From the sequence record SRR20825006_365: a DNA stretch of 38,292 nt. One strand, given 5' to 3'. Of this stretch, positions 10,868-36,526 are shown one piece after another (within the stretch, counting starts at the first letter, position 1; every line of letters starts with the position of its first letter). The notes below the pieces were generated by a model, which saw nothing but the letters and a program-made list of their open reading frames with translations, did not search any database and was not told the origin of the DNA. Position numbers and translations under genes: made by a program.

Positions 10868-11761
10868 TTAGACGAGCCACGGCACAACCAGCAATTCGGC
10901 AGTGCCTTTCCATTCGTTGGTTTCGCCACCGGCGGCATTCTCAGAGGTGAGCAGCTTGCGCGCCTTCGATTCATTGGATGGGCCAACGACCAGCAAGTTG
11001 GGTGTCAAAGCCAGAGGGCGGCCATGATCCGCTTTCATCGACATCAAAGCTGTGCGCCCGGTTTCATAAGTGGCGGCAGAGAAGTCCTGTTTGGAGCCCC
11101 ATGCTTGCTGCCAAAACCCGTAGCCTGCGCCATGGCGGGCCTCAGTGCCGTAGATGTACTCTTTGTTCATGAAGACGTTTTCATCGGTCGGCTTGTCGAG
11201 CGCTACGAACTTGGCCTTTTCGCGCTCTTGAAAAATGATCGGTTTGATCACCTCATTGGTGCACATCAAGAACCAAGGTGCGCCCGTGCCGCCGTCGGTA
11301 TTGGCCACTGTGCCCACGCTGCCATCCTCGGCAATGACCGGATGGTCGGTGTCAAAGAAGGGCTGCCCGTCGTAGCATGGCGAAGTGAACCCGGCGAGCA
11401 ACGTCTCCCAAACCAGTTGTTCGGGATGGCGCGCGGCAGCGCGGCCCATGGCGGAAAACCGCGTGCCATAGGTGCCCAGCTTGTCGTCTTGGATGTGATT
11501 GCGCGGCACGGAAATCGTCAACTCAAAGTCCTGATTGACGATACGGTAGTCATGGTCTTTGAGGCCATGAATGACGCGCGGACCAAGCCATTCGCGCATG
11601 CCGGGCAATTCGCCAAGCCAGCCATAAAGGTTCTCGCCATCCGTCGAGGGAATGGTTTCGGCCACGCGGTCGCGCATAGAGGTGACTTCGCCGAAGGCCT
11701 CATTGAATTTGAGAGAAAATCCGGTGCGCAACGCGGCGAGGGAGGTTGTGGTGATAAGCAT
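10868..11761 (-). CDS. Mu-like major head subunit (gpT)
   Basis: YGWLGELPGMREWLG, CYDGQPFFDTDHPV, KPIIFQER, GYGFWQ.A.GS. Confidence 0.95.
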   Translation of the reverse strand: MLITTTSLAALRTGFSLKFNEAFGEVTSMRDRVAETIPSTDGENLYGWLGELPGMREWLGPRVIHGLKDHDYRIVNQDFELTISVPRNHIQDDKLGTYGTRFSAMGRAAARHPEQLVWETLLAGFTSPCYDGQPFFDTDHPVIAEDGSVGTVANTDGGTGAPWFLMCTNEVIKPIIFQEREKAKFVALDKPTDENVFMNKEYIYGTEARHGAGYGFWQQAWGSKQDFSAATYETGRTALMSMKADHGRPLALTPNLLVVGPSNESKARKLLTSENAAGGETNEWKGTAELLVVPWLV

Positions 11762-11776: not shown

Positions 11777-12211
11777 TTACAGTGCTGCGCGGGTCAGCGC
11801 TTCGTCAAACCGGACCCAGACGCCCAAAGCGTCGACGTCTTCAACAATGCCAGCGGCAGAGCGCGCGCCGGTGCCATCGGTTTTGGCGACGGTCTGGTCA
11901 TCGACCGCAAAACACGGTTTGCCGATGTCTGCGATGGTGATTTCATCAGCGCCTGCGGAGTTGGCATATTTGAAACGGCCAGCTGTAAAGGTGACGGTTT
12001 TGTCGCCTGCTGCCCCATCGGAGTTGTCCACGGCGGCTTCGGCACGGCCCACGCCAATCAGGTTTGCGCCGGTAACAGCGGGCAGGATGTGGCCCGTGGC
12101 ATCACGCATCAGCATTGCGCCCGCAAAGACATTCACAGAGGCAGCCAGCAGCCCGATTTGGACCTTGCCCGCTTTGGCCGGAGTGTTGCGGCCTTCGATC
12201 AAAGCAACCAT
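11777..12211 (-). CDS. Capsid decoration/cement-like protein
   Basis: VDN..GAAGD, DIGKPCFAVDDQTVAKTDG, GVWV; between protease and capsid genes. Confidence 0.75.
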   Translation of the reverse strand: MVALIEGRNTPAKAGKVQIGLLAASVNVFAGAMLMRDATGHILPAVTGANLIGVGRAEAAVDNSDGAAGDKTVTFTAGRFKYANSAGADEITIADIGKPCFAVDDQTVAKTDGTGARSAAGIVEDVDALGVWVRFDEALTRAAL

Positions 12212-13290
12212 TAGAGTGCCTCCTGAGCTGTCTCGGACGCCAGTTGTTTGGCGAAATCTTCGTGGGAAATGCCAAGTGCATTTGCGACGCCGCGTTGCTG
12301 GGCATTGAGGGAGATTTGGCCGTCCTTATCGGCAGAGGGAGGCAGGTCTGTCATGCCGGATGGCGTGATGACTGGCAGGGCGTTGATCAGCGCCTCTGTG
12401 CGCTGCGGGTTTTCGGCATGCATAGAGATGTAGACATCGCGTTGCGGTTTGACGCCAACGCGCCCCGCTTTGATTGCCTCATCAACAAAGGCAGTGGCTT
12501 TGGCTGTCGTGCCATCGCTTTGAAGCGCCTTCACCGTCTTTCCAAGCTCGGTAATCGTCGCCTGCAAGGCCACGATTTGATCTGGCGCAGCCGTTTTGGC
12601 GGCTTTTGCGGCAGCGAGGATTGCGTTGGCATCACCGCCATCCGCGACACCCAAAGCTGTGCCGATTTCCGCCATCTGGGATTGCAGGGCCACGCTGCCT
12701 GCATCCTCGCCAGATTTGAGATTTGTCGTCAGAGCGTTGGAGATTTCATCCTCCGTCGCGTCTTCAGCGAGGCCAAGTGTTTTGGCCATGCGTTGCATGA
12801 AAGTCATGTCAGTTTCCTGTTGCTGTGAATTGAGAGAAGCCAGACCTTTGAGGTTCGGGCGGTTGACCAGACTGGCGCGTAAAATGCCGAGCACCACCTT
12901 TTGGGCCGTGTGCACGATGACGGGAGAAATGCCGCGATAGGCGTGGGTCGCGACCAGTTCGCGCCCGGCGTCGGTCCACTCGACCTTGCCCCAAATGCCA
13001 TCGTCGCGGGCTTGCATCTCAACAATCCAGCCACGTGCGGGCGAGGCCCCACCTTTGGGTGCTGCAAGGTCGATGGAATGGTTTTCGTCAATGGCAAGAC
13101 GGGTGTCGTCGGCAAAGGAGGCGTCGATGATCGCCTGCGCATCTTTGATGAAATACGGACCACGATTGTCGCCCGTCGCAATCTCAGAGCCACTGGGCAA
13201 AAGATGTATCCACTCAGGCGCGGCACCGGCCTGTTCGGGCGCGATGGTCTGGGCTGCCATAAGGGCGAGGGTGTGAATTGGTGTGTTCAT
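12211..13290 (-). CDS. Mu-like prohead protease/scaffold (gpI), with probable internal scaffold start at 12807
   Basis: PEWIHLLP, IDENH, PARGWI, WG.VEWT, YRGISPV, SLVNRPNL; coiled-coil scaffold C-terminus. Confidence 0.93.
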   Translation of the reverse strand: MNTPIHTLALMAAQTIAPEQAGAAPEWIHLLPSGSEIATGDNRGPYFIKDAQAIIDASFADDTRLAIDENHSIDLAAPKGGASPARGWIVEMQARDDGIWGKVEWTDAGRELVATHAYRGISPVIVHTAQKVVLGILRASLVNRPNLKGLASLNSQQQETDMTFMQRMAKTLGLAEDATEDEISNALTTNLKSGEDAGSVALQSQMAEIGTALGVADGGDANAILAAAKAAKTAAPDQIVALQATITELGKTVKALQSDGTTAKATAFVDEAIKAGRVGVKPQRDVYISMHAENPQRTEALINALPVITPSGMTDLPPSADKDGQISLNAQQRGVANALGISHEDFAKQLASETAQEAL

Positions 13291-13321
13291 GATGGGCCTA
13301 AATTGGCCCGAAAAATCCAAC

Positions 13322-13351
13322 AAAAAACCCCGCCAAGGTGGGCGGGGTGTT
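13322..13351 (-). promoter_or_regulatory. Late-operon regulatory palindrome, copy 1 (upstream of the protease gene)
   Basis: 29/30 identical to 24402-24431; ACCCCGCC-N6-GGCGGGGT. Confidence 0.75.
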
Positions 13352-13578
13352 GGTTCAGATCACGGTGCCAGACTGCCGCATCGTAGGCGTTTGGTCAATG
13401 TGTCTGTGGTGAGGCGGTGCAATTTTAGGGGAAGACGGGCAGCAGTTGCCAGCCGGTGTGAACCGTATCTGCGCGTCCTTTGTTAGGGGCAACTCTGTCT
13501 TGGTTTGTTTTATGGAATAGTCTGCCCACCGAGCTTTTCTTTTATGAGTTGTTAACCAAGATCGTGAAAGAGTGATCT

Positions 13579-13770
13579 ATGGTTTATAAATTCCGCATTT
13601 GTGAAAAAGATGATCTTGCCGACACAGCTCAAGGCTGGGTCGTGGCAATGTCAGAGATCGAAGCCCGCTCAATTCTCGGGAGGAACTCACACCTTCACTT
13701 GGTAGGGCAGAATTCAGAGCTGGCTATACCGAATAGAACCGTATTTGTTACGCATGGGCAGCTTCACTAA
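13579..13770 (+). CDS. Small hypothetical protein (63 aa), convergent with the RT
   Basis: ATG with purine-rich upstream GAAAGAG; plausible composition; AT-rich upstream region. Confidence 0.6.
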   Translation: MVYKFRICEKDDLADTAQGWVVAMSEIEARSILGRNSHLHLVGQNSELAIPNRTVFVTHGQLH

Positions 13771-13858
13771 CGGCCCTTTGCCGCCATTCACAACACGTGC
13801 GATGAAGGTCCGCAGCCGCTCGATTTCGGACGTTAATGCTCGCCGCAAAGAAAACATT

Positions 13859-15460
13859 TCAGTATTCGAGGAGGTCAGACAAGTCATCGCTCGACCCGTT
13901 GAGGTCTTTATTCCTCCTATCAATCCCATGATTCTTTGCGTGCAACCTGGCTGCTTTGCAAGCCTTCACGAAGCTTGGCAGTTGTACTTCGGGTAGTGGC
14001 TCGACTCCATCTTTTCCCTCTTTCTTTACCCAAGCGTTCATATCAAGCCAGCTGCCGTCAATTACTTGAGCATTATTAGGAGTGAGGCCAGAGGCGTAGG
14101 TTACACCTAGCGCATGACGGATTAAGGTCTCACGATGCTTCATTGCACGCCTGATATTGTTTACCATCCATCCGTCAAGTCGAACGAACGGGGAAAGATC
14201 ATCTACCAAAGCATAGTGAGCCATGATGCCATGCATTCTTTTGACTTTCTCTTCCCGATAGAGGCAATCGCAAATATTCTTTTCGGAATTTCCTCCGTAT
14301 ATCGTCTTCCGAAGTTCACTAATCAAACCAAGTAAATCCCAGTCGAACTGAGGCGTGGAAACGCTCACTCTGGCAGGGTTGAAGCTCCCGTTCCTAATGT
14401 ACTGTATGAGGTAAAGGTTTACCAAGCGCCCGATCTTCAACTTAATCTTCGCTTCAACTTTGTCAGATATTGTTGTGCCGCCGGGTGTAAACCTGTACCC
14501 TAGAAAATCAATTTCGCCTGTGGTTCTAATCTCTTGCTCAGTTTCGGAGAACGCAGAAATACCGGGCGATTTATTACGGTTTATCTCAAGAGCGTTCTTA
14601 TGAGCGTGATCATAAAAAGCCTGTTCAACTTGTAGTGCTTGTTCATAGTTGTTTGTTAGTGCAACCACATCATCAGCGTACCGGACAAATTTTCCGGATT
14701 TAAGCTGCAGGCTCTTGTCCAAGTCATGAAGTGCTAAGTTAGCCAAGATCAAAGATACACTGGACCCCTGTGGTGTGCCGACTGAACGCTTTTCTATTAT
14801 CTTCTGAGTGGCACCGCTGGCTCTTTTCACGATAGTCTTCTCGGACTCGTGCGACATAAAGGCCTTAATAATTCGACGTTCGGTGGATGTAATCCGCAGA
14901 GGAGATCTGTTTTCCGAATTTGCGCCAATCAGATCGTCCAGAAACTTATGGGGGATTTTGTCAAAAAATTTCTTAAAATCTACCTGGATAGCGAAAGTTT
15001 TCTCGTGCGGATTGGTGTCATTAAGTGCCTTGATGGCGTCGAAAATGTCTCTATCAGGCAGATAAGCATAACTGTCCGGTGAGAATGCTCGAAGGTTCCG
15101 CTTTACAATGGAACGATATACCAACTTGGCGACCACATTATCTGGAATTGAGAAAGAGGTAAGTGGGCGAGTGCCTCCGTCTTTCTTTGGAATGTCAAAC
15201 GTTCGGGCCAGTTCTGGCTTGTAAGTTCCCTTCTGTATCCTAGCCCAGATTACTTTTGAAATGACGTTACAATTCTTGGTGCAAAAATATGGATCGAAGT
15301 GATCATTAGTTCTCGTCGGAGGGGTAACCGGGAAAGATGTTGAGCCAGTCCGCTTTCTAATCCTTTCGCGGTGTTCTTCGAATTTCTTATTCTTGGCAAC
15401 CATCTTTGCTATCATGCACCGAGAGGTGTACTTTATCTCTTTTTTAATGGCTTCTTGCAA
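13859..15460 (-). CDS. Reverse transcriptase, stand-alone, probably UG/DRT (defence-associated) type
   Basis: RT motifs: IPKKDGGTRPL, SYAY, VDFKKFFDKIPH, GTPQGSSVS..LAN, RYADD, L.IN..KS, IDFLGY. TTG start with GAGGA RBS; AT-richer than the flanking phage genes. Confidence 0.95.
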   Translation of the reverse strand: MQEAIKKEIKYTSRCMIAKMVAKNKKFEEHRERIRKRTGSTSFPVTPPTRTNDHFDPYFCTKNCNVISKVIWARIQKGTYKPELARTFDIPKKDGGTRPLTSFSIPDNVVAKLVYRSIVKRNLRAFSPDSYAYLPDRDIFDAIKALNDTNPHEKTFAIQVDFKKFFDKIPHKFLDDLIGANSENRSPLRITSTERRIIKAFMSHESEKTIVKRASGATQKIIEKRSVGTPQGSSVSLILANLALHDLDKSLQLKSGKFVRYADDVVALTNNYEQALQVEQAFYDHAHKNALEINRNKSPGISAFSETEQEIRTTGEIDFLGYRFTPGGTTISDKVEAKIKLKIGRLVNLYLIQYIRNGSFNPARVSVSTPQFDWDLLGLISELRKTIYGGNSEKNICDCLYREEKVKRMHGIMAHYALVDDLSPFVRLDGWMVNNIRRAMKHRETLIRHALGVTYASGLTPNNAQVIDGSWLDMNAWVKKEGKDGVEPLPEVQLPSFVKACKAARLHAKNHGIDRRNKDLNGSSDDLSDLLEY

Positions 15461-15474
15461 AATTCTTTCCTCAG

Positions 15475-15632
15475 AAAACCCTTTCGGGCGCCGGCACCCT
15501 CAAAGAAATCACCGCAATTGCGTCCACCCTCTAGGCGAGAGCGTCCTCGGGAGAGACCGCCACCATTAAGCTGGAAGCAGCAGTCGTCTGCCACCTGGTG
15601 CCGACTAGACCAAACAGCCTTGAGGGTTTGTC
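15475..15632 (-). ncRNA. Putative RT-associated structured ncRNA (boundaries approximate; may extend to ~15815)
   Basis: Closing stem 15618-15627/15496-15505, internal hairpins, and a terminal GAAA-tetraloop hairpin directly upstream of the RT. Confidence 0.6.
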
Positions 15633-15830
15633 GCATAGGCTGAGCAAATTCGTCAACAGGGTTAAAGCTATCGGTTTCTGTATGCCTTCACAGTCGCGGA
15701 AGGAGCCTTTCTTGAGCGCAGGCAATACGCTCAGCTCAGAGGAAGTGGTGGGACGTCCCCGACCCTTCGTGTTGCTGCCGTTCGTCTCCACTGCACCGAA
15801 CGACTGCTTCCCGCCCGATGCACACATTTA

Positions 15831-16301
15831 TCAGCCCACCGAAACCTTCGCCAACCATTCCTCAATCGTTTCATGTATCTTCGTGCGGTCTTCTTCAGAC
15901 ACGCCAAGGAACGCACGGGCAGGGATATTGCCCCAAGGCGACCCATTGCCGAACGATCCTTTCGCGGCGCCGAATTGCATGACGGCGGCTTGAATGGCAT
16001 TTGATCCGAGTTCCATCCAATCTGGCCCAGAGTTGTAAGCGATGCCCTTGCGCATCCGGCCCGATTGATTGAGCGGCGCGCCAAATTTCAGGCCCAGCTT
16101 GCCGTAGCGGGCAATTGTGGTGGGCGAACGCGGGACGAAGGGTTTGCCGTCCACGTCAACACCAGTCGCAATACGGTCTTGTGTTGAGACCAACATCAAT
16201 TCGCCGATGTCACTCATTGGCTCCGACATATCGCTCATAGCAGCGGCAAGACGTGCCAACCCGGTGGTGATGGTGTCTTCGGTGATCTCAACGCGCATCA
16301 A
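15831..16301 (-). CDS. Virion morphogenesis protein (Mu gpG/gp31-like)
   Basis: PL..SG.M..., GSN..QAAVMQFG, IPARAFLGVSEED. Confidence 0.9.
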   Translation of the reverse strand: MMRVEITEDTITTGLARLAAAMSDMSEPMSDIGELMLVSTQDRIATGVDVDGKPFVPRSPTTIARYGKLGLKFGAPLNQSGRMRKGIAYNSGPDWMELGSNAIQAAVMQFGAAKGSFGNGSPWGNIPARAFLGVSEEDRTKIHETIEEWLAKVSVG

Positions 16302-17110
16302 CGGGCTCCTTTGCCGGAGGCCGCATCCATGAGGGCTGCACGTTGATCTTCAGGCAAGGAGTTCAAAAATGCCTCGGCCAATTCTGGTGGCCAGTTGCCG
16401 ATTTTGCCAGCCAGCGCATTGATCAGGTCTGACACGCTGGCTCCAGGTGCATAGTCCCAGCCTTTGCCGATGCCTGCGGGCGTGCCAGTTTTGGGGCTTG
16501 GTGCGGCCCAGTTCGGATCAAGCTGGACGTCCGGCTTGCCGCCGACACGACGCGCACCGGCCAAAGAGCGCGCACCAAACACACGACACGAGCAGCCCCA
16601 ATCATTGGGGGGATAGTGCGTGCGCCAAAAGGCATGATCGGAGGGCAAGATCAGACCGTCCCAAGCCAAATGCTGGGGGCGGGGATCAAGCGATCCACCA
16701 TGGCGGTACACCCAAAACGGATAATTGCCTGCAACGAGCTGCGCGTGGCGACCGGCCATGTAGCTGGTTTGCAGATTGGTGTCGTAGATCACCCGCATGC
16801 GCCATTCTTCGCCGCGTTTGGTGCCTTCTCCAGTCCAGCCGTGCCAGCCATGGCGCTGCACAGTGTCGCGAAACTCTTGCTTGAACCTTTCGAAGGTGGT
16901 GCCTTCGGCGATGGCTCTTTCTACCGCTGCAGCCAGATCGGCCAATAAGTCCGCCTTGGTCGCACCCGCGACCATAAAGGCGCGATCATGTTGAGCGCGC
17001 AAAAGATCGTCCCACGCTGATGTCGGCACAAGGTTGAGCATGCGCAATCGAAACGCCGTAAGCTGGGCATTGAAGGGCTGACGAAAAATGCTCGCGATGG
17101 TTTCAGGCAT
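16298..17110 (-). CDS. Head morphogenesis protein (Mu gpF/gp30)
   Basis: AFMVAGA, WRMRVIYDTN..TSY.AGR, PRPQHLAWDG, HYPPNDWGCSC. Confidence 0.92.
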   Translation of the reverse strand: MPETIASIFRQPFNAQLTAFRLRMLNLVPTSAWDDLLRAQHDRAFMVAGATKADLLADLAAAVERAIAEGTTFERFKQEFRDTVQRHGWHGWTGEGTKRGEEWRMRVIYDTNLQTSYMAGRHAQLVAGNYPFWVYRHGGSLDPRPQHLAWDGLILPSDHAFWRTHYPPNDWGCSCRVFGARSLAGARRVGGKPDVQLDPNWAAPSPKTGTPAGIGKGWDYAPGASVSDLINALAGKIGNWPPELAEAFLNSLPEDQRAALMDAASGKGAR

Positions 17111-18749
17111 CGCGGCTTTCCTCTTCGACAGTCAGACGCCCACCTGCAAAGCTCGATGTCAGGGCTTGTGCCATCATGATCTCGAAGCCGCTGGTATCTA
17201 CATCGCCAAATCCGGCGAGCATCATGGTGCGAAACTCTTCAAGCGACTGTGCCTGCGCCATCATCGCTTCAATCTGGCCCATCATGCGCGCGATTTGAGG
17301 TCGGGCCTCATTTTGTAAACGGTCGACGAGAGGAGCCAAATCCTGCCCCGCAGAAAAATCGCCCTGTGAGGCCTGTAAAGCCTCTTGAGCGGCAACCATG
17401 CCCGGATCGGCCTTGGGGTGTTTAACGGGCGCTAAAAACCGTTTAATTTTTGAAGCGGGGGGCGTGCCATCCCCCGCATCTGCGCCGGGCTCGGAATTTT
17501 GGGCCGTTTGACCCAAAATCTCATCGCCGTCTTTGGGTTTTTCCCACCCGAACTTGCTGTAAACCTGCTCGGCCTTTACCGGCAAACCAATCTTGACCAG
17601 GTTGCCTAAGATTTCGGAGGCGGCCTTGAGGTCTTCTTGCTCAGGGCGCGCGATCACGAGGGTCGGATAGGCGGTCTGCGGCCCAAATTCCAAATCCATC
17701 CACGGGCGGATCAGATCGCGGTTGAGGATCGCCGCCAAAGCGCCGGCATCGGCGCGTTCGATGTCCTCTTGAACCTGACGGTGTTCTTTGCCTGAGCCAA
17801 GACCGCCGACCACGGCATCCGTTGTGCCGGTCTGACCCAGCACAGCTTTTGAGATTTGCTGGTCAATGTGATCAACCCGCTTCAGGTAGAGATCTCCGGA
17901 TGAGTTTGTATTTTTGGCCTCGACAAAATCGATGGTCATGCTGTCAGGGATGATGACGGCGCAATCGCCTGCAATATTGGCGACCGCGTTGAACAGTGTG
18001 TCTTTGTCAGGCTCCGATGCGCCAGCCCCCCATTTGCCGATCCGCAAGGGCTGGCCGTAAGTCTGGGTGAAGATCGCCCAGTCGCGTTGGGTGTAGGCTT
18101 TAAACAGCCAGCCCCATGTGGCGACCCGCGCGAGACCGGAGCGCAGCGGCAAGCCCGATTTCGCCTTCACCTGGGCAAAGATGAATTTGAACGCATCAAG
18201 TGGCGTTTCTTGACCGTGATCATCCAACTGCATTGGGGTTTTGAGATCATGCCGATTGAAGCGGAACCAACGCGGGTCGCGGTATTCCAAACGGTCAGGA
18301 CGCCATTGCCCCATAGAGGTGTCCCAAATGATCTCCGTGAAGCTGTAGCCTTTGCCGACCGCATCTAGGATGTCGAACAGCTCTTCGACCAATTCACCGC
18401 GCTCAAGCCATTCTTGCACCATTTCCGATTTTTTGACGTCTTCCGGCTTGTCTGAGGCGGCTTTGACGGTGATTTCGATCTGGCTGACAGAGCGTTTGCG
18501 GGTGCCGATGACGCCCAGATAATGCGGATCGCGCTCTTCAACGACTTCGGCCAGTTCCAGAAACTGTACCGGGTCACCTTGATCCGCTGCGCGCAAGATA
18601 TGTGCCAGCCGCGCGGGGTCCAACCCATCGGCGGGTGTACCTGAGATCGGGCTGCGAACCCCGCCAATGGTGGCGGCGGCCACTTCTTTGGTCAGCATAC
18701 GGCGCTCTATCGGGCGGCCAAAACGGTCGAGCAACTGTGGTCGTGTCAT
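17103..18749 (-). CDS. Portal protein (Mu gp29, DUF935)
   Basis: EERDPHY, LDAVGKGYS..EIIW, DWAIF...YGQPLRIGK, QISKAVLGQT; ATG 18749 overlaps the methylase stop. Confidence 0.93.
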   Translation of the reverse strand: MTRPQLLDRFGRPIERRMLTKEVAAATIGGVRSPISGTPADGLDPARLAHILRAADQGDPVQFLELAEVVEERDPHYLGVIGTRKRSVSQIEITVKAASDKPEDVKKSEMVQEWLERGELVEELFDILDAVGKGYSFTEIIWDTSMGQWRPDRLEYRDPRWFRFNRHDLKTPMQLDDHGQETPLDAFKFIFAQVKAKSGLPLRSGLARVATWGWLFKAYTQRDWAIFTQTYGQPLRIGKWGAGASEPDKDTLFNAVANIAGDCAVIIPDSMTIDFVEAKNTNSSGDLYLKRVDHIDQQISKAVLGQTGTTDAVVGGLGSGKEHRQVQEDIERADAGALAAILNRDLIRPWMDLEFGPQTAYPTLVIARPEQEDLKAASEILGNLVKIGLPVKAEQVYSKFGWEKPKDGDEILGQTAQNSEPGADAGDGTPPASKIKRFLAPVKHPKADPGMVAAQEALQASQGDFSAGQDLAPLVDRLQNEARPQIARMMGQIEAMMAQAQSLEEFRTMMLAGFGDVDTSGFEIMMAQALTSSFAGGRLTVEEESRDA

Positions 18750-19573
18750 GTGGGCACCCCGTGAGGTTCGAGTGGGAAATTGGAAATCAGCAGCTCGCCC
18801 GCGTCTTTGGCCTTGTCGCCGCCCGCCAGCGTGTAGGTGACGCGCACCGGGACAATATCGGCCCAATCAAACAGGCTGCGGATCTCGGGGACGTCATTAA
18901 TTGAGAGAATAAACTGGCCTTTAATGCCCCGTAAAATGCGGGCCAGATTGGCAAAGTCATCGCGGCTGAAGGCATCTTTGCCATAATCGGTCTCGCTGCC
19001 GAAATATGGCGGGTCGAGATAGAACAGCGTCGAGGTCCGATCCACGCGCGCAATGAACGCACCGTAGCCAAGGCACATCACGGTAACGCCAGACAATCGG
19101 TCGTGCAGGGCCTCGAGATCGGTCTCTAGGGTGGTCAGGTTGAAACGGGCAGGGCGCTCCGTGGATATCCCAAAGGTCCGTCGATTTACGATGCCACCAA
19201 AGGCAACCCGCTGGAGGTATAAGAACCGCGCCGCGCGTTGCAGGTCGGTCAGAGTTTCGGGGGTGACTTTCATCAGACGTTCAAAGCCTGCCTGTGTCGT
19301 GATCTGAAACCGCAGCAGGTCCAGAAAGGCGACGTAGTGCTCCTGCAAGATGCGGAACAGATTGTAGACGTCTTGGCTGTAGTCGTTGATGAACTCAGAG
19401 CGCGGTTTGCGTTTGCGGCGCAAGAAGATGCCGCCCATGCCCACAAACGGTTCGGCATAGGTGATGTGGTCATGCGCATCGATGATGGCACAGAGCCGTT
19501 TGGCAAGGTTGCGTTTGCCGCCGATATAGGGCGCGACGGGCTTGGACGTGGTGGCTTCGGTTTTCTTTGACAT
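18746..19573 (-). CDS. DNA adenine methyltransferase (Dam/D12 class); alternative in-frame start at 19738
   Basis: PYIGGK, YAEPFVGMGG, IND, FYLDPPY. Confidence 0.93.
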   Translation of the reverse strand: MSKKTEATTSKPVAPYIGGKRNLAKRLCAIIDAHDHITYAEPFVGMGGIFLRRKRKPRSEFINDYSQDVYNLFRILQEHYVAFLDLLRFQITTQAGFERLMKVTPETLTDLQRAARFLYLQRVAFGGIVNRRTFGISTERPARFNLTTLETDLEALHDRLSGVTVMCLGYGAFIARVDRTSTLFYLDPPYFGSETDYGKDAFSRDDFANLARILRGIKGQFILSINDVPEIRSLFDWADIVPVRVTYTLAGGDKAKDAGELLISNFPLEPHGVPT

Positions 19574-19602
19574 GAGTGTGCGACTCGCTTTAGCCAGTTC
19601 TT

Positions 19603-19704
19603 TCCCGCAAGGGACAGAGGCGGCCATAAGCGTAGGCTGGTCGGCGGGGCCTGTTCCAATAGATCCCCGTGTTCGAAACTGGTGAGACAGTTTCTGACCC
19701 TCTG
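19603..19704 (+). ncRNA. Putative structured RNA (cloverleaf) antisense to the methylase leader
   Basis: UCCC-GCAA-GGGA hairpin, closing stem CAGAGG/CCUCUG, three internal stems. Confidence 0.45.
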
Positions 19705-19734
19705 CCCATTTTTCGGTATGTTCTGGGCTTTGGA

Positions 19735-21450
19735 TCATTGAATACCTCCCCGAATGCGTGCGCCGAGTGGGCCTGAGAAGGGTCCACGTCTGTGCCGGTC
19801 GCCCTCGTGGTTGGGGAGCATGTTCATCTGGCCTTCGGATTGTGGGTGTTGGACCTGAGGGTATTGGGCCTGAGGGTATTGGGCCTGTGTTGGCACGGCG
19901 CGGTAGCCGTATTCGGACCACCGCATCCGGCTCGCAAAATGCGCCAGGGCCAATCCAATGGCGAAGTCGCCGTGGCGTTTTTTGTCTTTCTCGCCTTCGC
20001 GGGTGGCAGGCACGCGGGGGATGCCGCGCAACAGCTTCACAACCCGCAAATCTGAGGCGTGATCATCGAATTTGATCAGCTGCAACGTGCCGTCTTCAAA
20101 GGCCGATTTCAGCGGTGGCATGTTGATGCGGTACCAGTCCTCAGAGAACTTGATGGCCCAAACCAGACCTGAGCCATCATCTGTTTCGCGCAGGCCGAAC
20201 TTACGGCCCATGTCTTCGGCCACAGTCCAGCCCATGCCAGTGGCATCAAAGGCGGCACCGACCAGCCGACCGCGCAAATGCTCCATGATCATGCCCACGG
20301 CTTTTTTCTGCTCGTCACCGGGGACACCGCGCATCTCAAGGCAGAGCGCCTCAGTGCGGTGTAAATTCGGTGCAATCGCCAACACTGGCAGCACCGACAG
20401 ATCGGCCACACGGGCAAAGTCAAAGCCAATCGCATAGCGCAGGTCCATGTCGAGCTTGCCAAGTTCTTCTTCGATCTGCTCATAGAACGGGGCCATTAAG
20501 ATGGCCTGCTCAAGTGCCGAGCGCTGCAAATAGTCTTTCGGCAAGTCCAGCGTGATCACCGGCTTTTCCACAGTCATGCGCGCCTCAATCAGCGGGGCCG
20601 CCAGCCACGATCCTGTGGACAGACTGGGGACGCAGAACAGCTCTTGATCGGCGCTGTCGCCATAGAATTTGATGATGCCTTGTCGCCAAGCCGCCTCGGC
20701 CTCAACAGACCAGTTGAGGCCTTTGATCAGACAGATACGCTCATAAAGGCCGTCCGTGATGGCTTGGTCCAGATCGATCCGCACATGTTGGCCGGGCATT
20801 CGCCCTGCCAGAATATCTTGGATGTTGGTGTTAAAAGTGTTGTCGACACCAAAATGCGTGGAGCAAACGACGACCTGACCGCCCCACATCAAGAACGCCA
20901 TAGCCGCCTCGATGAGCGTGTCGAGATTATCGACAAACGCGGCCTCGTCAATGATCACCACGCCTTGTTTGCCGCGCAGGCCACGTGGGGCCGAACTGAG
21001 GGCCATGATTTCAAAGCCGGAGGCAAAGCGAATGCGGAAGGCTTGAATGGCCTTATCGCCCTCAGTGTCGCCTTCTTCAAACAGGCATTCTTCTTCGGCC
21101 ATCGCTGCAGATGAAAAAGCGCGCGCCCACATGGCGCAGGCATCCACAAATTCGCGGGTCATCTCTTTGCTGTAGGAGATATACATCACATCCATGCCGC
21201 CTGCGCCTTTCTGGCGACCGGCGCGGTGGACGGCATAGGCCGCCAACCCCCATGTCAGGCCAATGCGGCGGGATTTTTCAATATACAGCACCTGGGTGCT
21301 GGTACTGTTCAGCAGCCCTACGACCCCTTGTTGATAGGGCAAGAGGGCTTTGGTCTGACCAACTTTGGCAATGACGTCTGGAATCGCGTCCATCGCCTCA
21401 AGGCGCATGGCCTCCCATTCCTCTTGTGTCAGGATCGCGCCATCTGCCAT
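19735..21450 (-). CDS. terL: Terminase large subunit (Mu gp28-like)
   Basis: LLPYQ, EKSRRIGLTW (Walker A-like), VIIDEAAF (Walker B), IGFDFAR..D, FDATGMG, HGD. Confidence 0.95.
   Translation of the reverse strand: MADGAILTQEEWEAMRLEAMDAIPDVIAKVGQTKALLPYQQGVVGLLNSTSTQVLYIEKSRRIGLTWGLAAYAVHRAGRQKGAGGMDVMYISYSKEMTREFVDACAMWARAFSSAAMAEEECLFEEGDTEGDKAIQAFRIRFASGFEIMALSSAPRGLRGKQGVVIIDEAAFVDNLDTLIEAAMAFLMWGGQVVVCSTHFGVDNTFNTNIQDILAGRMPGQHVRIDLDQAITDGLYERICLIKGLNWSVEAEAAWRQGIIKFYGDSADQELFCVPSLSTGSWLAAPLIEARMTVEKPVITLDLPKDYLQRSALEQAILMAPFYEQIEEELGKLDMDLRYAIGFDFARVADLSVLPVLAIAPNLHRTEALCLEMRGVPGDEQKKAVGMIMEHLRGRLVGAAFDATGMGWTVAEDMGRKFGLRETDDGSGLVWAIKFSEDWYRINMPPLKSAFEDGTLQLIKFDDHASDLRVVKLLRGIPRVPATREGEKDKKRHGDFAIGLALAHFASRMRWSEYGYRAVPTQAQYPQAQYPQVQHPQSEGQMNMLPNHEGDRHRRGPFSGPLGARIRGGIQ
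19841..19887. repeat. 15-bp tandem repeat (about 3 copies) encoding QAQYP-QAQYP-QVQHP
   Basis: cctgagggtattggg at 19854-19868 and 19869-19883 plus a degenerate copy. Confidence 0.85.
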
Positions 21451-33397: not shown

Positions 33398-33419
33398 CCG
33401 GACCTTCTCTGCGAGCGCA
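33398..33419. repeat. 22-bp inverted repeat, left copy
   Basis: Reverse complement matches 36057-36078 at 20/22. Confidence 0.8.
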
Positions 33420-33421
33420 CA

Positions 33422-34144
33422 CTAGCCGATGAATATGTGCCGCAGAACAGCCTGAGCGATGTCCATCGTGGGAACTGCCAGCATGAAATATCCCAGAGAT
33501 CCAAACAACAGGGATATTATTCGCGCGGGCTTATAGGTGTGCATCATACCAACCCACCATTCTCTGGCGAGATAGCCTATGTAGTCGCCATGCTTGGAGA
33601 ACATGTGGGCTCTGACGTCTGGCCTATAACCTGAAACCACAGGCTTCTTGGCACGCGGCGCACCCAATACTATCCAAAATGCCTCCGTTCGTTCGACCCA
33701 CGACTCAGAATGAACGCGCTCCTCCATACGGGCGAGCTCGTAGACGTTGTATCTCTGCCTTACTAGTTCAGAAAACTCTAAGTCGCTTTTGGCGGTTTCC
33801 AGAACTTCTGGACGGAACACTCGGAATGTCACGAATGAGCCAAGCACGAGCAGGCTGCCGAAGAACACCAACCGAAGCTTGGTTAGACCGTCCAAGAGGA
33901 AGGGGGATCTCTCTGCCCCCCCAACGCCTGCTAGTGCATCGAACGAGAGTATCCCAGCGATCTCGTCGTTAAACAGGATCAGGTAACCGGCTATAGGTAT
34001 CAGCCCGACGACCCGCGTGAAGTCATTGTTCGCAACAGCCTTCACGGATTCCCAACGCACAATTTTCCAATCTTTACGCGATTTCAACAGGAAGCACCTC
34101 CGCAGGTTTCGGTAGATCCTACAATCTGCTCCACCAATTGCCAT
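33422..34144 (-). CDS. Hypothetical membrane protein (about 3 TM), paralogue of 35150..35992
   Basis: Hydrophobic segments; shared motifs with the 280-aa protein; start uncertain. Confidence 0.8.
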   Translation of the reverse strand: MAIGGADCRIYRNLRRCFLLKSRKDWKIVRWESVKAVANNDFTRVVGLIPIAGYLILFNDEIAGILSFDALAGVGGAERSPFLLDGLTKLRLVFFGSLLVLGSFVTFRVFRPEVLETAKSDLEFSELVRQRYNVYELARMEERVHSESWVERTEAFWIVLGAPRAKKPVVSGYRPDVRAHMFSKHGDYIGYLAREWWVGMMHTYKPARIISLLFGSLGYFMLAVPTMDIAQAVLRHIFIG

Positions 34145-34234
34145 CCCAAACGGACCCGGCCCTTAGTGGACATCCAATGGAGATGCGTGAGTACTAGTAA
34201 GCAGCCTCTTGATACACTTATCAACACACCATTC

Positions 34235-35083
34235 TCAGCTATCTATCTGCAAGAAATTCATCTCTGGCTCACTTAATTTGATTGGGACTAAGGTAAACTC
34301 GCAATCATGGCCCTGGTCGTCGCTATAGTATCCAGTATATAACCAAATCGAAAGAAACGGCACCGCGTCAAGGAAGTCCTGAATCTCATCGAATGCCTCA
34401 ATAAACTCATCTGGGTTGCTTTGAGTTGTCAAGTTATCCAGCAACAGAATGGTGTTCTCTTTGTTGTTGTGCTTTTTACTAACCTTTTTTGAGATAGCCG
34501 TTTTTAACTCACTCACTAGGTCAACTGAAGGCTCCATTGGAGGGCGTAAGAAGAACTTTGGGTGAGATCCACCTTCTCCGATTTTGAAGCGCTTTTTCTT
34601 ATCGGCCTTGGTTTTTACTGCGCTGACAATCTCTTCTGGTAGCGTCCCGGGGAAAAGCCTTTCGATCTTTAGAACCTCATACCCAGAGAGCACTTTTTTT
34701 GATAACAAAATCGAAGCTTCGTTCTCTGCCTTGATCGCTTTGAGCAAAGCTCTGTCAGCGATCCGGCAAATTTCCAGAAAGAAGTGTTTGCCATCATGCA
34801 TTACATACTCGAAATCCCACGGGCAATCGCGACCGACTACATAAAATTGGGGTTGTTCATTGCCTTCAGTATAATGCATTTTTGCGAACTGCTTTGAAAA
34901 GTGAAAAGCAACAATTTCTTCTCTGTGACGGTCATCCCATACGTTGAGCCGGACGACTTCCTGCAATGATCCATCCGGCCTAACAAAAATATGTCGGCAA
35001 TAGTTAAACTTGTCCGTCAAGTCAGCGTTATGCTCAAACTGGCTTCTACTACTCCGCAGCCTCACTACGCTGAATTCTGACAC
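34235..35083 (-). CDS. Hypothetical protein, possible PD-(D/E)XK nuclease fold
   Basis: PWDF.....G....LEI and AI.KK..K......ILLLD patterns. Confidence 0.6.
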   Translation of the reverse strand: MSEFSVVRLRSSRSQFEHNADLTDKFNYCRHIFVRPDGSLQEVVRLNVWDDRHREEIVAFHFSKQFAKMHYTEGNEQPQFYVVGRDCPWDFEYVMHDGKHFFLEICRIADRALLKAIKAENEASILLSKKVLSGYEVLKIERLFPGTLPEEIVSAVKTKADKKKRFKIGEGGSHPKFFLRPPMEPSVDLVSELKTAISKKVSKKHNNKENTILLLDNLTTQSNPDEFIEAFDEIQDFLDAVPFLSIWLYTGYYSDDQGHDCEFTLVPIKLSEPEMNFLQIDS

Positions 35084-35149
35084 GTATGAGTTTCCTATGA
35101 TTGCCGTTGCCTGAATGCGATTTTTGTATCATGAACTGAGCAAAGTGTC

Positions 35150-35992
35150 ATGAAGGGATGTGACCAAATGGACCTGAAAAATTTGGGAACATGGCATGTG
35201 GAGTTGTCAAGAAAGATCACTTGGTCTCAACTTGCAAAGCTCGGAACAACGCCTGTGATGCGTTTGACTACCTTAGTACCACTGATCGGAATTTTTTTGC
35301 TCTTTAACGAGCAGACCGAGCTCATCTTTCAGTTCCCTCAATTTCTGAAGACCGATATCGGGGAAACTGGCGATAACGAGATATCTGCATCCAATCTCTA
35401 CTTCACGTATTTTGGTCTTTGTAGCTTAGGTATAGCCTCACTGCTATTTACAGCCCTATGTCCAAGGGAAATCCAAGTTCAACCAAATCAGCAGTTATTT
35501 GTTTCGCAGGCTACCTCTCTAGAAACGCCTGTTTTGGCCAAAGCTAATTTCCGAGAAGTTCTTGATCTTCACCATGCACAAGTTGACGGAGAGATGTCCT
35601 GGGACAATCCAAATTATCCCGGGGAATTAGAAAGCGATTTTCACGCTTTGATGGAGGAGTTCTACACTACTGCCGATCACGGCGAGGATGATGCTTATGA
35701 AGATTTTCCAGAAGTAATGACTGCGACCGGGTATCTGGATTTCACAGAGTTCGCGCACATGCTTTGGTCAAACCCAAGAGTAGTTTGGCCGATGACACTG
35801 CCCGTTTTTGAGGTTGCTCCAAGGTTAGCAAAAGACGTGGCCTTCGTAAGGTTTCAGGCGCTAAATTTTACCAGATATTGGACACGCATCTGCGTTTTTG
35901 CACTTTTCCTTGTGGGTTTTGTGCTCTTGGCCTTCCCAACGCTTCGGGTTTTCGCCCTCCTAACATACGGAGTGGCTTTTGGTTGGGAATAG
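35150..35992 (+). CDS. Hypothetical membrane protein (about 3 TM) with acidic loop
   Basis: 280-aa ORF with hydrophobic segments; paralogue of 33422..34144. Confidence 0.8.
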   Translation: MKGCDQMDLKNLGTWHVELSRKITWSQLAKLGTTPVMRLTTLVPLIGIFLLFNEQTELIFQFPQFLKTDIGETGDNEISASNLYFTYFGLCSLGIASLLFTALCPREIQVQPNQQLFVSQATSLETPVLAKANFREVLDLHHAQVDGEMSWDNPNYPGELESDFHALMEEFYTTADHGEDDAYEDFPEVMTATGYLDFTEFAHMLWSNPRVVWPMTLPVFEVAPRLAKDVAFVRFQALNFTRYWTRICVFALFLVGFVLLAFPTLRVFALLTYGVAFGWE

Positions 35993-36056
35993 GCTTTGGA
36001 ATTACCGTAGTCGTTCTCTTGTGAATGTCTGCCTTCGGGCCATCCCACAGCCAGCT

Positions 36057-36078
36057 TGCGCTCGCAGCGAAAGTCCGG
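36057..36078. repeat. 22-bp inverted repeat, right copy
   Basis: tgcgctcgcagcgaaagtccgg vs reverse complement of 33398-33419. Confidence 0.8.
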
Positions 36079-36122
36079 AATCCGCCCTTGGTGTCGATGC
36101 AGCGTCACGTTTACGCAGAAAT

Positions 36123-36526
36123 CTCTTTCCAGTTCGTTGCTATAAATTTCGAAGCTAAAAATCCTCATATCACTGATTTTAAATGCTTAATTCCTTTCTG
36201 GAAAGAGCGAGTCGAACTCGCAAGACCTCTTTCCAGTTCAGAGGGTGATCGCTGTGTCCATTTCGGATTAAATCAGCATTTAAATGCCCTGAAACCCCTT
36301 ATTTAATGGCCTCTGAGAGGCGTAGATGGATTTGCAAGTTTTGGTGTCTGTAGAGAGGGTCATACCTTACATAAGGGCCCTTATGGGGCTTAGTGCAGGA
36401 CTTTATGCAGCTTGCACGGCTAGCCCCGCCATTCCTTCAAATTCCTTATAAATAAGGCCTTTAAGCGCCTTTTACCGGCTGTTCCCACCTGTTCCCGCTT
36501 ACTGCAGGTTTCTATGTCTCACTACA
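36123..36526 (-). other. Predicted prophage left end region with repeated protein-binding motifs
   Basis: Ends in ..ACA at 36526 (5'-TGT on the - strand). TGCARGTTT...TGTCT at 36333-36349 and 36503-36519; CTCTTTCCAG at 36123, 36227 and inverted at 36198-36207. Confidence 0.65.

What the first reader, a model, noticed from the sequence alone, without database searches (positions are those of the whole stretch)
13859..15830. Prophage-borne stand-alone reverse transcriptase module: candidate novel RT-ncRNA anti-phage system
Seen: an intact 533-aa RT (YADD) with a long C-terminal extension of no recognisable nuclease type. It is AT-richer than its surroundings, inserted between the gpG-like and protease genes, and preceded by 370 nt without a convincing gene. 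It has FLGY rather than the retron VTG motif, PQG..S rather than the DGR-type IGN..SQ, and no intron domain V or HNH that I can see. Established: ncRNA-plus-RT loci of this layout include DRT2, DRT9 and DRT10, which synthesise unusual cDNAs for phage defence. Inference: a UG/DRT-class system carried by a Mu-like phage to protect the lysogen. The subtype cannot be fixed by eye and may be undescribed.
Basis: partly seen in the sequence, partly recalled or inferred. Interest (0 to 1): 0.88.

Follow-up and report, generated by a model that had tools for sequence, protein, structure and literature searches.

The report
DRT9 defence reverse transcriptase on prophage
A Mu-like prophage carries, between two of its head genes, a member of the already described DRT9 family of anti-phage reverse transcriptases, with an unusually divergent leader RNA in front of it.

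Summary
An intact 533-aa YADD reverse transcriptase (13859-15460, minus strand) lies in an AT-rich insert between the gpG-like and protease genes of a Mu-like prophage, behind a 370-nt gap that holds no gene.

It is not an undescribed RT class. It matches the PADLOC Drt9 (UG28) model over its full length (E 5e-139). It matches the solved SenDRT9 chain by sequence (E 7e-55) and by predicted fold (TM 0.77-0.87). All six best PDB fold matches are DRT9.

It belongs to a distinct, long-branched subclade. The leader is more conserved than the ORF against the one close relative I could fetch (88% versus 83%). It folds into the DRT9 layout: a 5' hairpin, a 9-bp closing stem, and a U-rich single strand just before the stem's 3' side. 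However, three covariance models built from other DRT9 ncRNAs do not detect it. Its U tract is U3-C-U3, not U4 or longer. The C-terminal tail has one tyrosine, not two.

Most likely mechanism, inferred from SenDRT9: protein-primed, ncRNA-templated synthesis of A-rich DNA that kills the infected lysogen (abortive infection). Verdict: a known kind with a variant RNA; moderate interest.

The parts
13859..15460 (-). DRT9 (UG28) reverse transcriptase, 533 aa, TTG start, YADD at residues 261-264, terminal Tyr533
   Evidence: ORF. PADLOC Drt9 E 5.3e-139, residues 1-516 on profile 1-479/488. PDB DRT9 chain E 6.9e-55. AF2 model pLDDT 84.6. Foldseek ranks 1-6 are all DRT9 chains, TMq 0.77-0.81 and TMt 0.83-0.87. 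Differences from L001 fall 43/41/182 by codon position.
15475..15625 (-). Candidate DRT9 ncRNA, about 150 nt; both ends are inferred, not mapped
   Evidence: Leader core 15461-15622 is 88.2% identical to L001 (142 of 161), against 83.4% for the ORF. MFE -67.7 kcal/mol, z -2.23. Two-sequence consensus fold: 44 pairs, 5 one-sided changes that all keep the pair, 0 broken. Not detected by CMs R1, R2 or R3, or by nhmmer.
15607..15620 (-). 5' hairpin (5 bp, GUUU loop), placed like the 5' hairpin of other DRT9 ncRNAs
   Evidence: The TC>CT swap in L001 keeps both pairs (GC>GU, GU>GC). The equivalent hairpins covary in the canonical type. In the alpha type the hairpin is predicted but its three pairs do not vary.
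15597..15605 (-). 5' strand of the 9-bp closing stem (P1)
   Evidence: Invariant between the window and L001.
15490..15498 (-). 3' strand of the closing stem (P1)
15502..15508 (-). U3-C-U3 tract in a single strand 3 nt before the P1 3' strand: candidate reverse-transcription template
   Evidence: Sequence, unpaired in the centroid fold. Same place as the CUUAYUUUU loop of canonical DRT9 ncRNAs and the CCCU(G/U)ACU(C/U)U loop of the alpha type. Unchanged in L001, and no difference is listed there in the X18 contig.
15475..15489 (-). 4-bp GAAA-loop hairpin followed by U4: weak terminator-like end of the ncRNA
   Evidence: Canonical loci have a stronger hairpin plus U run at this place. The scan did not call it a terminator.
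15651..15656 (-). TTGACG, candidate -35 of the cassette's own promoter; a weak -10-like GACAAA lies at 15632-15627
   Evidence: Conserved in L001. It sits about 30 nt before the 5' hairpin, as TTGAC does in relatives. The sigma-70 consensus scan found 0 promoter-like sites in 13300-16000, so this part is inferred.
13780..15692 (-). The mobile DRT9 cassette as delimited by homology to L001
   Evidence: blastn: L001 5738-7682 = window 15692-13780, 81.5% over 1946 columns. Identity falls to 52% and 47% outside. The L001 flanks gave no Pfam family in 5 of 6 ORFs tested and only an HTH domain in the sixth; PHROGs was not run on them.
13327..13348 (-). Intrinsic-terminator-like hairpin (8 pairs, 7 GC) plus T run, at the end of the insert just before the protease gene
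15831..16301 (-). Left flank: Mu gpG-type virion morphogenesis / Neck1 gene
   Evidence: PF05069 E 2.4e-25; phrog_26.
12211..13323 (-). Right flank: head maturation protease (Mu gpI type); the true start is probably Met12
   Evidence: phrog_328 E 5.9e-71 from residue 19. 49.7% identical to the proteases of phages RS1 and RC1 from residue 12.

Best explanation
The locus is a two-part DRT9 (UG28) anti-phage system: a reverse transcriptase plus an upstream structured ncRNA. It is carried as a self-contained cassette of about 1.9 kb (a moron) in the variable gpG-protease junction of a Mu-like prophage of a Rhodobacteraceae-type host.

Shown here:
- The RT is a DRT9 by profile, by sequence match to the solved protein and by predicted fold.
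- It is intact and under purifying selection.
- The leader is conserved more strongly than the ORF and folds into the DRT9-type layout.
- The cassette also occurs in an unrelated genomic context.

Inferred from SenDRT9 and PsaDRT9 (Tang et al. 2025; Mestre et al. 2022), not shown here:
- In the lysogen the leader is transcribed from its own promoter, mostly ends at the small hairpin plus U4, and binds the RT.
- The RNP oligomerises.
- The disordered C-terminal tail puts Tyr533 into the active site as primer.
- The U-rich tract at 15508-15502 is copied over and over into long A-rich single-stranded DNA that stays linked to the protein.
- A host 3' exonuclease keeps this product low until an infecting phage raises dATP or protects the 3' ends. 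The product then accumulates and the cell dies before the phage completes its cycle (abortive infection). This protects sister lysogens and with them the prophage.
For: RT identity:
- PADLOC Drt9 462.2 bits, E 5.3e-139, full length. The next models score 132 bits (generic RT) and 92 bits (UG17).
- 29 of 29 aligned relatives also hit Drt9.
- phmmer against the PDB: the DRT9 chain shared by 6 entries, E 6.9e-55; next is a group II RT at 2.2e-21.
- Foldseek ranks 1-6 are DRT9 chains, aligned over 525-527 columns; the group II RT reaches TMq 0.52.
- RT-motif residues D161, Q231-G232 and D263-D264 are invariant in the 29-sequence alignment.
- Tyr533 is invariant in 14 of 14 clade members. The tail 516-533 has pLDDT below 50, as expected of a mobile C-terminal loop (EMBO J paper, passages).

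Selection: ORF differences fall 43/41/182 by codon position. The leader core is 88.2% identical, the ORF 83.4%.

RNA layout:
- A 9-bp closing stem with a U-rich tract just 5' of its 3' strand occurs twice in 76.6 kb of window sequence on both strands. One of the two is this leader.
- 5 of 5 substitutions at predicted paired positions keep the pair.
- The TTGACG box lies at the same distance from the 5' hairpin as in relatives.

Cassette: homology to L001 stops at 15692 and 13780. The same junction in phage RS1 holds three unrelated hypothetical genes.

DRT9-like RTs occur in 5 IMG/VR loci. L056 lies about 2 kb from a tape-measure gene; L057 lies beside primase and resolvase genes.

Weak: a metatranscriptome run has a 183-nt contig over 15404-15586, about 95% alike. 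DNA carry-over is not excluded.
Against: - The leader is not recognised by any model I could build. R1 (15 alpha-type ncRNAs), R2 (17 divergent ones) and R3 (30 canonical ones) gave no match there at E<=10 with filters off. A 281-nt search gave only a 2.3-bit partial match. nhmmer found nothing. R1 finds its RNA in 51 of 52 loci, the one miss being L001, the window's closest relative.
- Mestre et al. describe UG28 ncRNAs as 'surprisingly' conserved (passages), so a miss is unusual. But R3 also misses the alpha-type ncRNAs (0 of 3 tested), so these tests have little reach across types.
- The U tract is interrupted (U3-C-U3). In SenDRT9, deleting one U of the U4 abolished defence (Tang et al., section read).
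- There is one tail tyrosine, where SenDRT9 has Y496 and Y498, both needed against T5.
- With only two leader sequences there is no compensatory (two-sided) change: 0 of 44 pairs. The fold z-score is modest: 4 of 200 shuffles fold as well.
- The promoter scan found nothing.
- No experiment of any kind bears on this locus.
Confidence: 0.8

Rival explanations
1. It is a DRT9-type RNP, but it makes a different product. Because the template tract is U3-C-U3, and the RT's sister clade mostly lacks a U run, this subclade may make a mixed A/G-rich or short tandem-repeat DNA (telomerase-like, as in DRT10) rather than a dA homopolymer.
For: - A U run of 4 or more in the template loop: 73 of 75 canonical ncRNAs, but only 4 of 51 alpha-type ncRNAs.
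- The window tract has a C in the middle.
- The window clade lies inside the group that holds the alpha type, apart from the SenDRT9-like clade.
- DRT10 template loops are poorly conserved and give tandem repeats (preprint passages).
Against: - Three U's on either side of the C could still support slippage synthesis of poly-dA.
- SenDRT9 used only dATP in vitro, even with other dNTPs present.
- No product data exist for any alpha-type system that I could find.
- The loop windows were set by position, not by a structure-checked alignment.
Confidence: 0.2
2. The leader is only a 5' UTR or regulatory element of the RT mRNA. It is not an RT-bound template RNA, and the RT works without it or is inactive.
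For: No CM or nhmmer match to known DRT9 ncRNAs. No compensatory change. Weak terminator-like end.
Against: - The leader is conserved above the level of the ORF.
- Its layout and the position of the U tract match the family.
- Both RT and ncRNA are needed in the tested UG28 system (Mestre et al., passages).
- 51 of 52 loci of relatives searched with R1, and 75 matches over the 80 canonical loci searched with R3, carry an upstream ncRNA.
Confidence: 0.1
3. The RT serves the phage itself, for example in its own replication, in exclusion of close relatives only, or as a counter-defence. It is not a general abortive-infection defence of the lysogen.
For: It lies inside the late morphogenesis gene row and on the same strand, so late read-through transcription is possible.
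Against: - The same cassette sits in a context where the six flanking ORFs tested gave no phage structural family by Pfam (L001).
- The family is defence-associated and was tested as such.
- The site is a variable cargo site in relatives.
Confidence: 0.07
4. It is a group II intron maturase, a retron RT or a DGR RT.
For: Weak generic RT similarity: group II TIGR04416 150.8 bits, retron St85 55.6 bits.
Against: - Both scores lie far below the curated cut-offs of 300 and 235.
- No intron, msr/msd or other Rfam RNA at E<=1.
- No direct or inverted repeat of 25 nt or more in 12000-17500, so no TR/VR pair there.
- The DRT9 model and fold fit far better.
Confidence: 0.01

Closest known systems
DRT9 / UG28 (SenDRT9, PsaDRT9; PDB 9nlv, 9nlx, 9ioa, 9iob, 9vku, 9vma)
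   Same: - Full-length profile match, and the same fold including the N-terminal helix and thumb.
- YADD; a disordered C-terminal tail that ends in Tyr.
- A stand-alone RT with an upstream non-coding leader of about 150 nt: 5' hairpin, closing stem, U-rich single strand before the stem's 3' side, then a hairpin plus U run before the start codon.
   Different: - About 29% identity to SenDRT9, in a separate subclade.
- The leader is not found by a CM of 30 canonical ncRNAs.
- U3-C-U3 instead of U4 or longer.
- One tail tyrosine instead of Y-x-Y.
- A 34-residue longer protein.
- Sits in a Mu-like prophage.
Alpha-type DRT9 relatives (about 40-47% identical RTs, mostly of Alphaproteobacteria; loci L002-L068)
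   Same: - Nearest large clade; together they form a 29-row group with support 100.
- All 29 of 29 hit Drt9.
- Same RNA layout, with the template loop only 2-3 nt before the closing stem.
- Some have the same UUUCUUU word (L061, L025, L020).
   Different: - Their ncRNA is a tight family: R1 finds it in 51 of 52 loci, and 23 of 37 pairs show compensatory changes. It does not match the window leader.
- Their tails carry two tyrosines about 14 residues apart. The window clade has Asn at the first.
DRT10 / UG17 and DRT2 / UG2
   Same: Class 2 UG RTs with an upstream template ncRNA. DRT10 is protein-primed from a C-terminal residue (preprint passages).
   Different: - Far weaker profile scores: UG17 92 bits, Drt2 69 bits.
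- No SLATT gene next to the RT: the flanks are phage head genes and the 63-aa ORF has no family.
- DRT2 chain TMq is only 0.42.
Cargo (moron) sites of Mu-like phages RS1 and RC1
   Same: Same gene order, portal - minor head - gpG-like - [variable] - protease - major head. RS1 has about 2 kb of cargo at this junction.
   Different: The RS1 cargo is three hypothetical genes with no convincing defence-model hit (best DarG, E 0.009). Here the cargo is DRT9.

Membership tests
DRT9 / UG28 | RT matches the family profile over its whole length and better than any other RT class | tested here: met
   PADLOC Drt9 462.2 bits, E 5.3e-139, residues 1-516 on profile 1-479/488. The next models score 132.2 and 92.1 bits.
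DRT9 / UG28 | Fold of the solved DRT9 RT (fingers, palm, thumb plus N-terminal extension) | tested here: met
   The AF2 model (pLDDT 84.6) gives Foldseek ranks 1-6 all DRT9 chains: TMq 0.77-0.81, TMt 0.83-0.87, 525-527 aligned columns.
DRT9 / UG28 | Catalytic YADD | tested here: met
   FVRYADDVV, residues 258-266. D263 and D264 are invariant in 29 sequences.
DRT9 / UG28 | Two conserved tyrosines in the C-terminal tail as primers (Y496, Y498 in SenDRT9) | tested here: inconclusive
   The tail ends ...LLEY. It has one Tyr (Y533), invariant in 14 of 14 clade members. The second tyrosine of relatives is Asn here. Either tyrosine sufficed against T2 in SenDRT9, but both were needed against T5.
DRT9 / UG28 | Upstream ncRNA homologous to the family's ncRNA | tested here: not met
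   No match in the leader at E<=10 with R1, R2 or R3 with filters off, or with nhmmer; 2.3 bits in a 281-nt search. The test has low reach: R3 also misses 3 of 3 alpha-type ncRNAs. The published CM was not available to me.
DRT9 / UG28 | ncRNA layout: 5' hairpin, long-range closing stem, internal hairpins, single-stranded template loop before the stem's 3' strand | tested here: inconclusive
   Present in the MFE, centroid and two-sequence consensus folds. The descriptor occurs 2 times in 76.6 kb. There are only two sequences, hence no compensatory change.
DRT9 / UG28 | Uninterrupted poly-U template (U4 or longer) in that loop | tested here: not met
   The loop has U3-C-U3 at 15508-15502. 73 of 75 canonical ncRNAs have a run of 4 or more. 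A U4 exists at 15478-15475, but after the closing stem. That is where SenDRT9 has a dispensable second U-rich region.
DRT9 / UG28 | Protein-primed poly-dA synthesis, hexamer, abortive-infection defence | not testable with these tools
   Needs cDNA sequencing, biochemistry and plaque assays.
Group II intron RT/maturase | Curated equivalog score, and an intron RNA around the ORF | tested here: not met
   TIGR04416 150.8 bits against a cut-off of 300. No Rfam match at E<=1 in 13000-16500.
Retron | Retron RT model and an msr/msd RNA | tested here: not met
   Retron St85 55.6 bits against a cut-off of 235. No Rfam match.
Diversity-generating retroelement | Template and variable repeat pair near the RT | tested here: not met
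   0 direct and 0 inverted repeats of 25 nt or more in 12000-17500. DGR RT chain TMq 0.40.
DRT10 / UG17 | UG17 RT profile and an adjacent SLATT gene | tested here: not met
   RT_UG17 92.1 bits against 462.2 for Drt9. The neighbours are phage head genes, and the 63-aa ORF 13579-13770(+) has no Pfam or PADLOC hit.

The most novel reading that the evidence does not exclude
This subclade, and perhaps the whole alpha-type branch of DRT9, does not make a dA homopolymer. Its template loop lacks the 'universally conserved' poly-U tract (U3-C-U3 here; CCCU(G/U)ACU(C/U)U in 47 of 51 relatives). Its tail has a single terminal tyrosine. It may therefore write a mixed purine-rich or short tandem-repeat DNA. 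That would be a natural intermediate between DRT9 homopolymer synthesis and DRT10 telomerase-like repeat synthesis, delivered here by a transposable phage.
Probability: 0.2. Interest if true: 0.65.

Novelty: new variant of a known kind. Interest (0 to 1): 0.4.

Why it matters
As a DRT9 the locus is ordinary: the family was named in 2022 and its mechanism was solved in 2025. Three things give it some value.

1. It shows DRT9 travelling as a 1.9-kb promoter-RNA-RT cassette into the head-gene row of a Mu-like prophage. None of the 50,697 phage records searched holds a match covering 80% or more of this RT, and the one literature search listed no paper with DRT9 and prophage in its title.
2. It marks the gpG-protease junction of RS1/RC1-like phages as a cargo site.
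3. Together with its relatives, it shows that the poly-U template called universal for DRT9 is not conserved across all RTs that score as DRT9. This makes a concrete question testable with one sequencing experiment: what do these RTs write?

Tried and rejected
- Rfam scan of 13000-16500: nothing at E<=1.
- NCBIfam: no model above its cut-off.
- CMs R1, R2, R3 and an nhmmer profile against the leader: no match.
- A broader 51-sequence CM could not be built, because the calibration forecast was over the limit.
- More members of the window's subclade were sought in genome contigs, IMG/VR and metagenome contigs (swamped by group II introns). This yielded only L001 (87%) and L061 (47%), so covariation in this leader type could not be tested. 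The contigs of P0003-P0014 could not be fetched.
- Plasmids: 3 distant hits only, best 32.6%.
- Whole genome of the window: none held.
- Earlier findings of the scan: none.
- Sequencing runs X5, X6 and X8 hold identical DNA, so they gave no variation. Parts without contig cover say nothing.
- The sigma-70 scan found no promoter.
- The 63-aa ORF 13579-13770(+) and the relatives' ORFs downstream of the RT: no Pfam or PADLOC family, no SLATT.
- The maximum-likelihood tree did not finish in time, so a FastTree was used instead.
Full report
**1. The observation**

The window holds an open frame at 13859-15460 on the minus strand: 533 aa with a TTG start. It carries FVRYADDVV, so YADD sits at residues 261-264. 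The start is credible. GAGGA lies 7 nt upstream, and the first ten residues align with the N-termini of 28 relatives.

GC is 0.43-0.48 in the four 500-nt bins of 13501-15500. It is 0.56-0.58 on either side.

The neighbours are late genes of a Mu-like phage, all on the same strand:
- major head protein, 10868-11761;
- a virion structural protein;
- head protease, 12211-13323;
- then the RT;
- a gpG-type morphogenesis protein, 15831-16301 (PF05069, E 2.4e-25);
- minor head protein;
- portal protein;
- a D12 adenine methyltransferase;
- large terminase;
- further on, a MuA-type transposase.

The 370-nt gap before the RT has no gene. Its 98-codon same-strand frame shows differences spread 12/9/10 over the codon positions. 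It is broken by two stops in the closest relative.

**2. What the protein is**

Pfam sees only RVT_1, at residues 90-324. No NCBIfam model reaches its cut-off: group II 150.8 of 300, retron St85 55.6 of 235.

The PADLOC library settles the class. Drt9 scores E 5.3e-139 and 462 bits, with residues 1-516 on profile positions 1-479 of 488. The next models score 132 bits (generic RT) and 92 bits (UG17). The 'long C-terminal extension' is therefore part of the DRT9 architecture, not an added effector.

Against PDB sequences the best match is the chain shared by six DRT9 entries (E 6.9e-55). Next comes a group II RT at 2.2e-21.

An AlphaFold2 model built on 29 sequences has pLDDT 84.6 and pTM 0.77. 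Its six best Foldseek matches are all DRT9 chains, with TMq 0.77-0.81 and TMt 0.83-0.87 over 525-527 columns. The best non-DRT9 chain reaches TMq 0.56.

All 29 of 29 aligned relatives also hit Drt9. No repeat of 25 nt or more lies in 12000-17500, and no Rfam family matches. DGR, retron and intron readings are therefore out.

**3. Where it sits in the family**

A search of every 50%-identity cluster representative gave 130 clusters at E<=1e-30. I built a FastTree of 108 rows. These were the full-length representatives of 470-620 aa, 18 earlier hits and the window. Shorter rows were left out.

The tree places the window in a clade of 8 rows (support 100) on a long stem of 0.45. That clade lies inside a 29-row group (support 100) that also holds the mostly alphaproteobacterial relatives of 40-47% identity.

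The clade that holds the closest relatives of SenDRT9 lies apart (40 rows, support 99). Those relatives are P0247 (410 bits to the PDB chain) and P0169 (347 bits). The tree is unrooted in effect and has SH-like support only.

**4. The cassette**

The one close relative whose DNA I could fetch is L001, with an RT 87% identical, from a Rhodobacteraceae MAG. It shares homology exactly from window 15692 to 13780, at 81.5%. Identity is about 50% beyond either end. Its six flanking ORFs gave no Pfam family, except an HTH domain in one; PHROGs was not run on them. So a unit of about 1.9 kb moves between contexts.

In the window it lies in the gpG-protease junction. In phage RS1 (protease 49.7% identical) the same junction holds about 2 kb with three unrelated hypothetical genes. 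An intrinsic-terminator-like hairpin at 13348-13327 closes the insert.

No GenBank phage record (0 of 50,697) has a match covering 80% or more of this RT. IMG/VR, however, has five loci with 40-42% relatives. L056 lies about 2 kb from a tape-measure gene. L057 lies beside primase and resolvase genes. DRT9-type cargo in phage-like elements is thus not unique to this window.

Identical DNA stands in contigs of three further runs (X5, X6, X8). Contig records of X6 and X8 run on into the gpG-like gene.

**5. The leader**

Between the window and L001 the ORF differs mostly at third codon positions (43/41/182) and is 83.4% identical. The non-coding core 15461-15622 is 88.2% identical, 142 of 161. 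That is the signature of a functional non-coding element.

It folds with a modest z of -2.23 (4 of 200 shuffles fold as well) into the following elements:
- a 5-bp hairpin, 15620-15607;
- a 9-bp long-range stem, 15605-15597 with 15498-15490;
- internal hairpins;
- an unpaired U3-C-U3 at 15508-15502, three bases before the stem's 3' strand;
- a 4-bp GAAA-loop hairpin followed by U4, 15489-15475.

All five substitutions at predicted paired positions keep the pair. None is two-sided (0 of 44 pairs).

A 9-bp stem spanning 90-160 nt with such a U tract occurs twice in the 76.6 kb of both strands. One of the two is this leader.

TTGACG at 15656-15651 is conserved in L001. It lies about 30 nt before the hairpin, like the TTGAC boxes of relatives. 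The consensus scan nevertheless called no promoter.

**6. Comparison with known DRT9 ncRNAs**

I recovered two ncRNA types.

*Alpha type.*
- 15 seed sequences give 37 pairs, 23 of them with compensatory changes.
- Model R1 finds the RNA in 51 of 52 loci. The single miss is L001.

*Canonical type.*
- Loci came from an alignment of SenDRT9-like RTs. They include Photobacterium sanctipauli, the PsaDRT9 host named by Tang et al..
- 30 seeds give a 5' hairpin and a closing stem, with 7 of 12 pairs compensatory.
- Model R3 gives 75 matches over 80 loci. It finds three held-out loci: L156 at 54 bits, L194 at 32 and L154 at 32.

Both types share the layout seen in the window. None of R1, R2 (17 divergent alpha-type sequences) or R3, nor an nhmmer profile, matches the window or L001 leader.

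R3 also fails on three alpha-type ncRNAs. The models therefore do not reach across types, and a miss does not show non-homology. Still, Mestre et al. call UG28 ncRNAs surprisingly conserved (passages), and this leader is an exception.

**7. The template**

Tang et al. show that U123-126 of the SenDRT9 ncRNA template poly-dA. They show that deleting one U abolishes defence, and that a second U-rich stretch at the 3' end is dispensable (section read). The DRT10 preprint calls the tract universally conserved in DRT9 (passages).

In my sets, 73 of 75 canonical ncRNAs have a U run of 4 or more in the loop. Only 4 of 51 alpha-type ncRNAs do. The alpha-type loop reads CCCU(G/U)ACU(C/U)U, or CCCUUUCUUU in a few. 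The window has U3-C-U3. The loop windows were set by distance from the 3' end, not by a checked structural alignment.

**8. The primer**

SenDRT9 ends ...LNYDYE, with Y496 and Y498 as primers. The window ends ...LLEY. Tyr533 is invariant in 14 of 14 clade members, and the last 18 residues are modelled as disordered. Alpha-type relatives have a second tyrosine about 14 residues upstream; the window clade has Asn there.

**9. Mechanism**

*Shown:* the class of the RT, its intactness and selection, leader conservation and fold layout, cassette boundaries, and the prophage context.

*Inferred from the studied systems:*
- The leader is transcribed in the lysogen and binds the RT.
- The RNP oligomerises.
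- Tyr533 primes.
- The U-rich tract is copied iteratively into long A-rich DNA linked to the protein.
- A host 3' exonuclease removes the product until an infecting phage raises dATP or caps the 3' ends.
- The accumulated DNA then kills the cell.

I put 0.8 on 'a DRT9 system that works broadly in this way'. Within that, I put about 0.2 on a product that is not a pure homopolymer.

**10. Expression**

A metatranscriptome run holds a 183-nt contig over 15404-15586 with 10 differences, and a 411-nt contig within the ORF. Contigs show neither ends nor strand, and DNA carry-over is possible. This is a weak hint only.

**11. Literature seen**

- Tang et al. 2025 (PMC12483538): abstract, sections 3-7, 23 and 24, and passages.
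- EMBO J 2025 (PMC12489045): passages.
- DRT10 preprint (PMC12632851): passages.
- Mestre et al. 2022 (PMC9226505): passages.
- Search listings. The search 'DRT9' with 'prophage' found 5 papers; the 4 listed do not have both terms in the title (listing only).
- Supplementary tables were closed. Supplementary Table 1 of Tang et al. may list members of this clade.

**12. Verdict**

This is a real, intact member of a described family, not a new RT class. It varies in its RNA partner, template tract and priming tail, and it sits in a Mu-like prophage cargo site. Interest is moderate.

Noticed in passing
L002-L068 (upstream of the RT in each; e.g. L006 5848-5985, L039 4781-4918): RTs that score as DRT9 (29 of 29) in mostly alphaproteobacterial genomes carry a well-supported ncRNA (23 of 37 pairs compensatory). 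Its template-position loop reads CCCU(G/U)ACU(C/U)U. Only 4 of 51 have a U run of 4 or more, against 73 of 75 in canonical DRT9 ncRNAs. This is at odds with the 'universally conserved poly-uridine' statement in the literature.
   Followed up: partly
L001 5900-5935 (relative to window 15521/15522): The closest relative has a 32-nt insertion in the leader. It looks like a second copy of the hairpin that precedes it (window 15545-15523), so this internal hairpin is duplicated in one member.
   Followed up: no
window 15512-15519: A self-complementary 8-mer (GCAAUUGC) lies in the leader just before the U tract; in L001 its last C is U. SenDRT9 hexamers use loop-loop RNA contacts, including a self-contact of SL4. 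Whether this palindrome plays such a role is open.
   Followed up: no
window 13324-13779: About 450 nt of AT-richer DNA (GC 0.48) lie between the end of the L001-homologous cassette and the terminator. It holds only a 63-aa ORF on the opposite strand (13579-13770), which has no Pfam, PHROGs or PADLOC hit. This may be a remnant of earlier cargo.
   Followed up: partly
window 18746-19921 (-): A D12-class N6-adenine DNA methyltransferase (PF02086, E 3.9e-28) sits between the portal and terminase genes. It is a second non-structural cargo gene in the late region.
   Followed up: no
window 33400-36500: A second AT-rich island (GC 0.43-0.48) holds three ORFs of 240, 282 and 280 aa (33422-34144 -, 34235-35083 -, 35150-35992 +). 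None has a Pfam or PADLOC hit. It lies beyond the transposase end of the prophage.
   Followed up: partly
L141 (phage RS1) 2934-5000: The gpG-protease junction of Rhodovulum phage RS1 holds three hypothetical genes, one on the opposite strand, so this junction is a variable cargo site in this phage group. PADLOC gave only a marginal DarG hit, E 0.009.
   Followed up: partly
A1 alignment, column of Tyr261: In most alpha-type relatives the catalytic motif reads FADD rather than YADD. The window clade keeps YADD.
   Followed up: no
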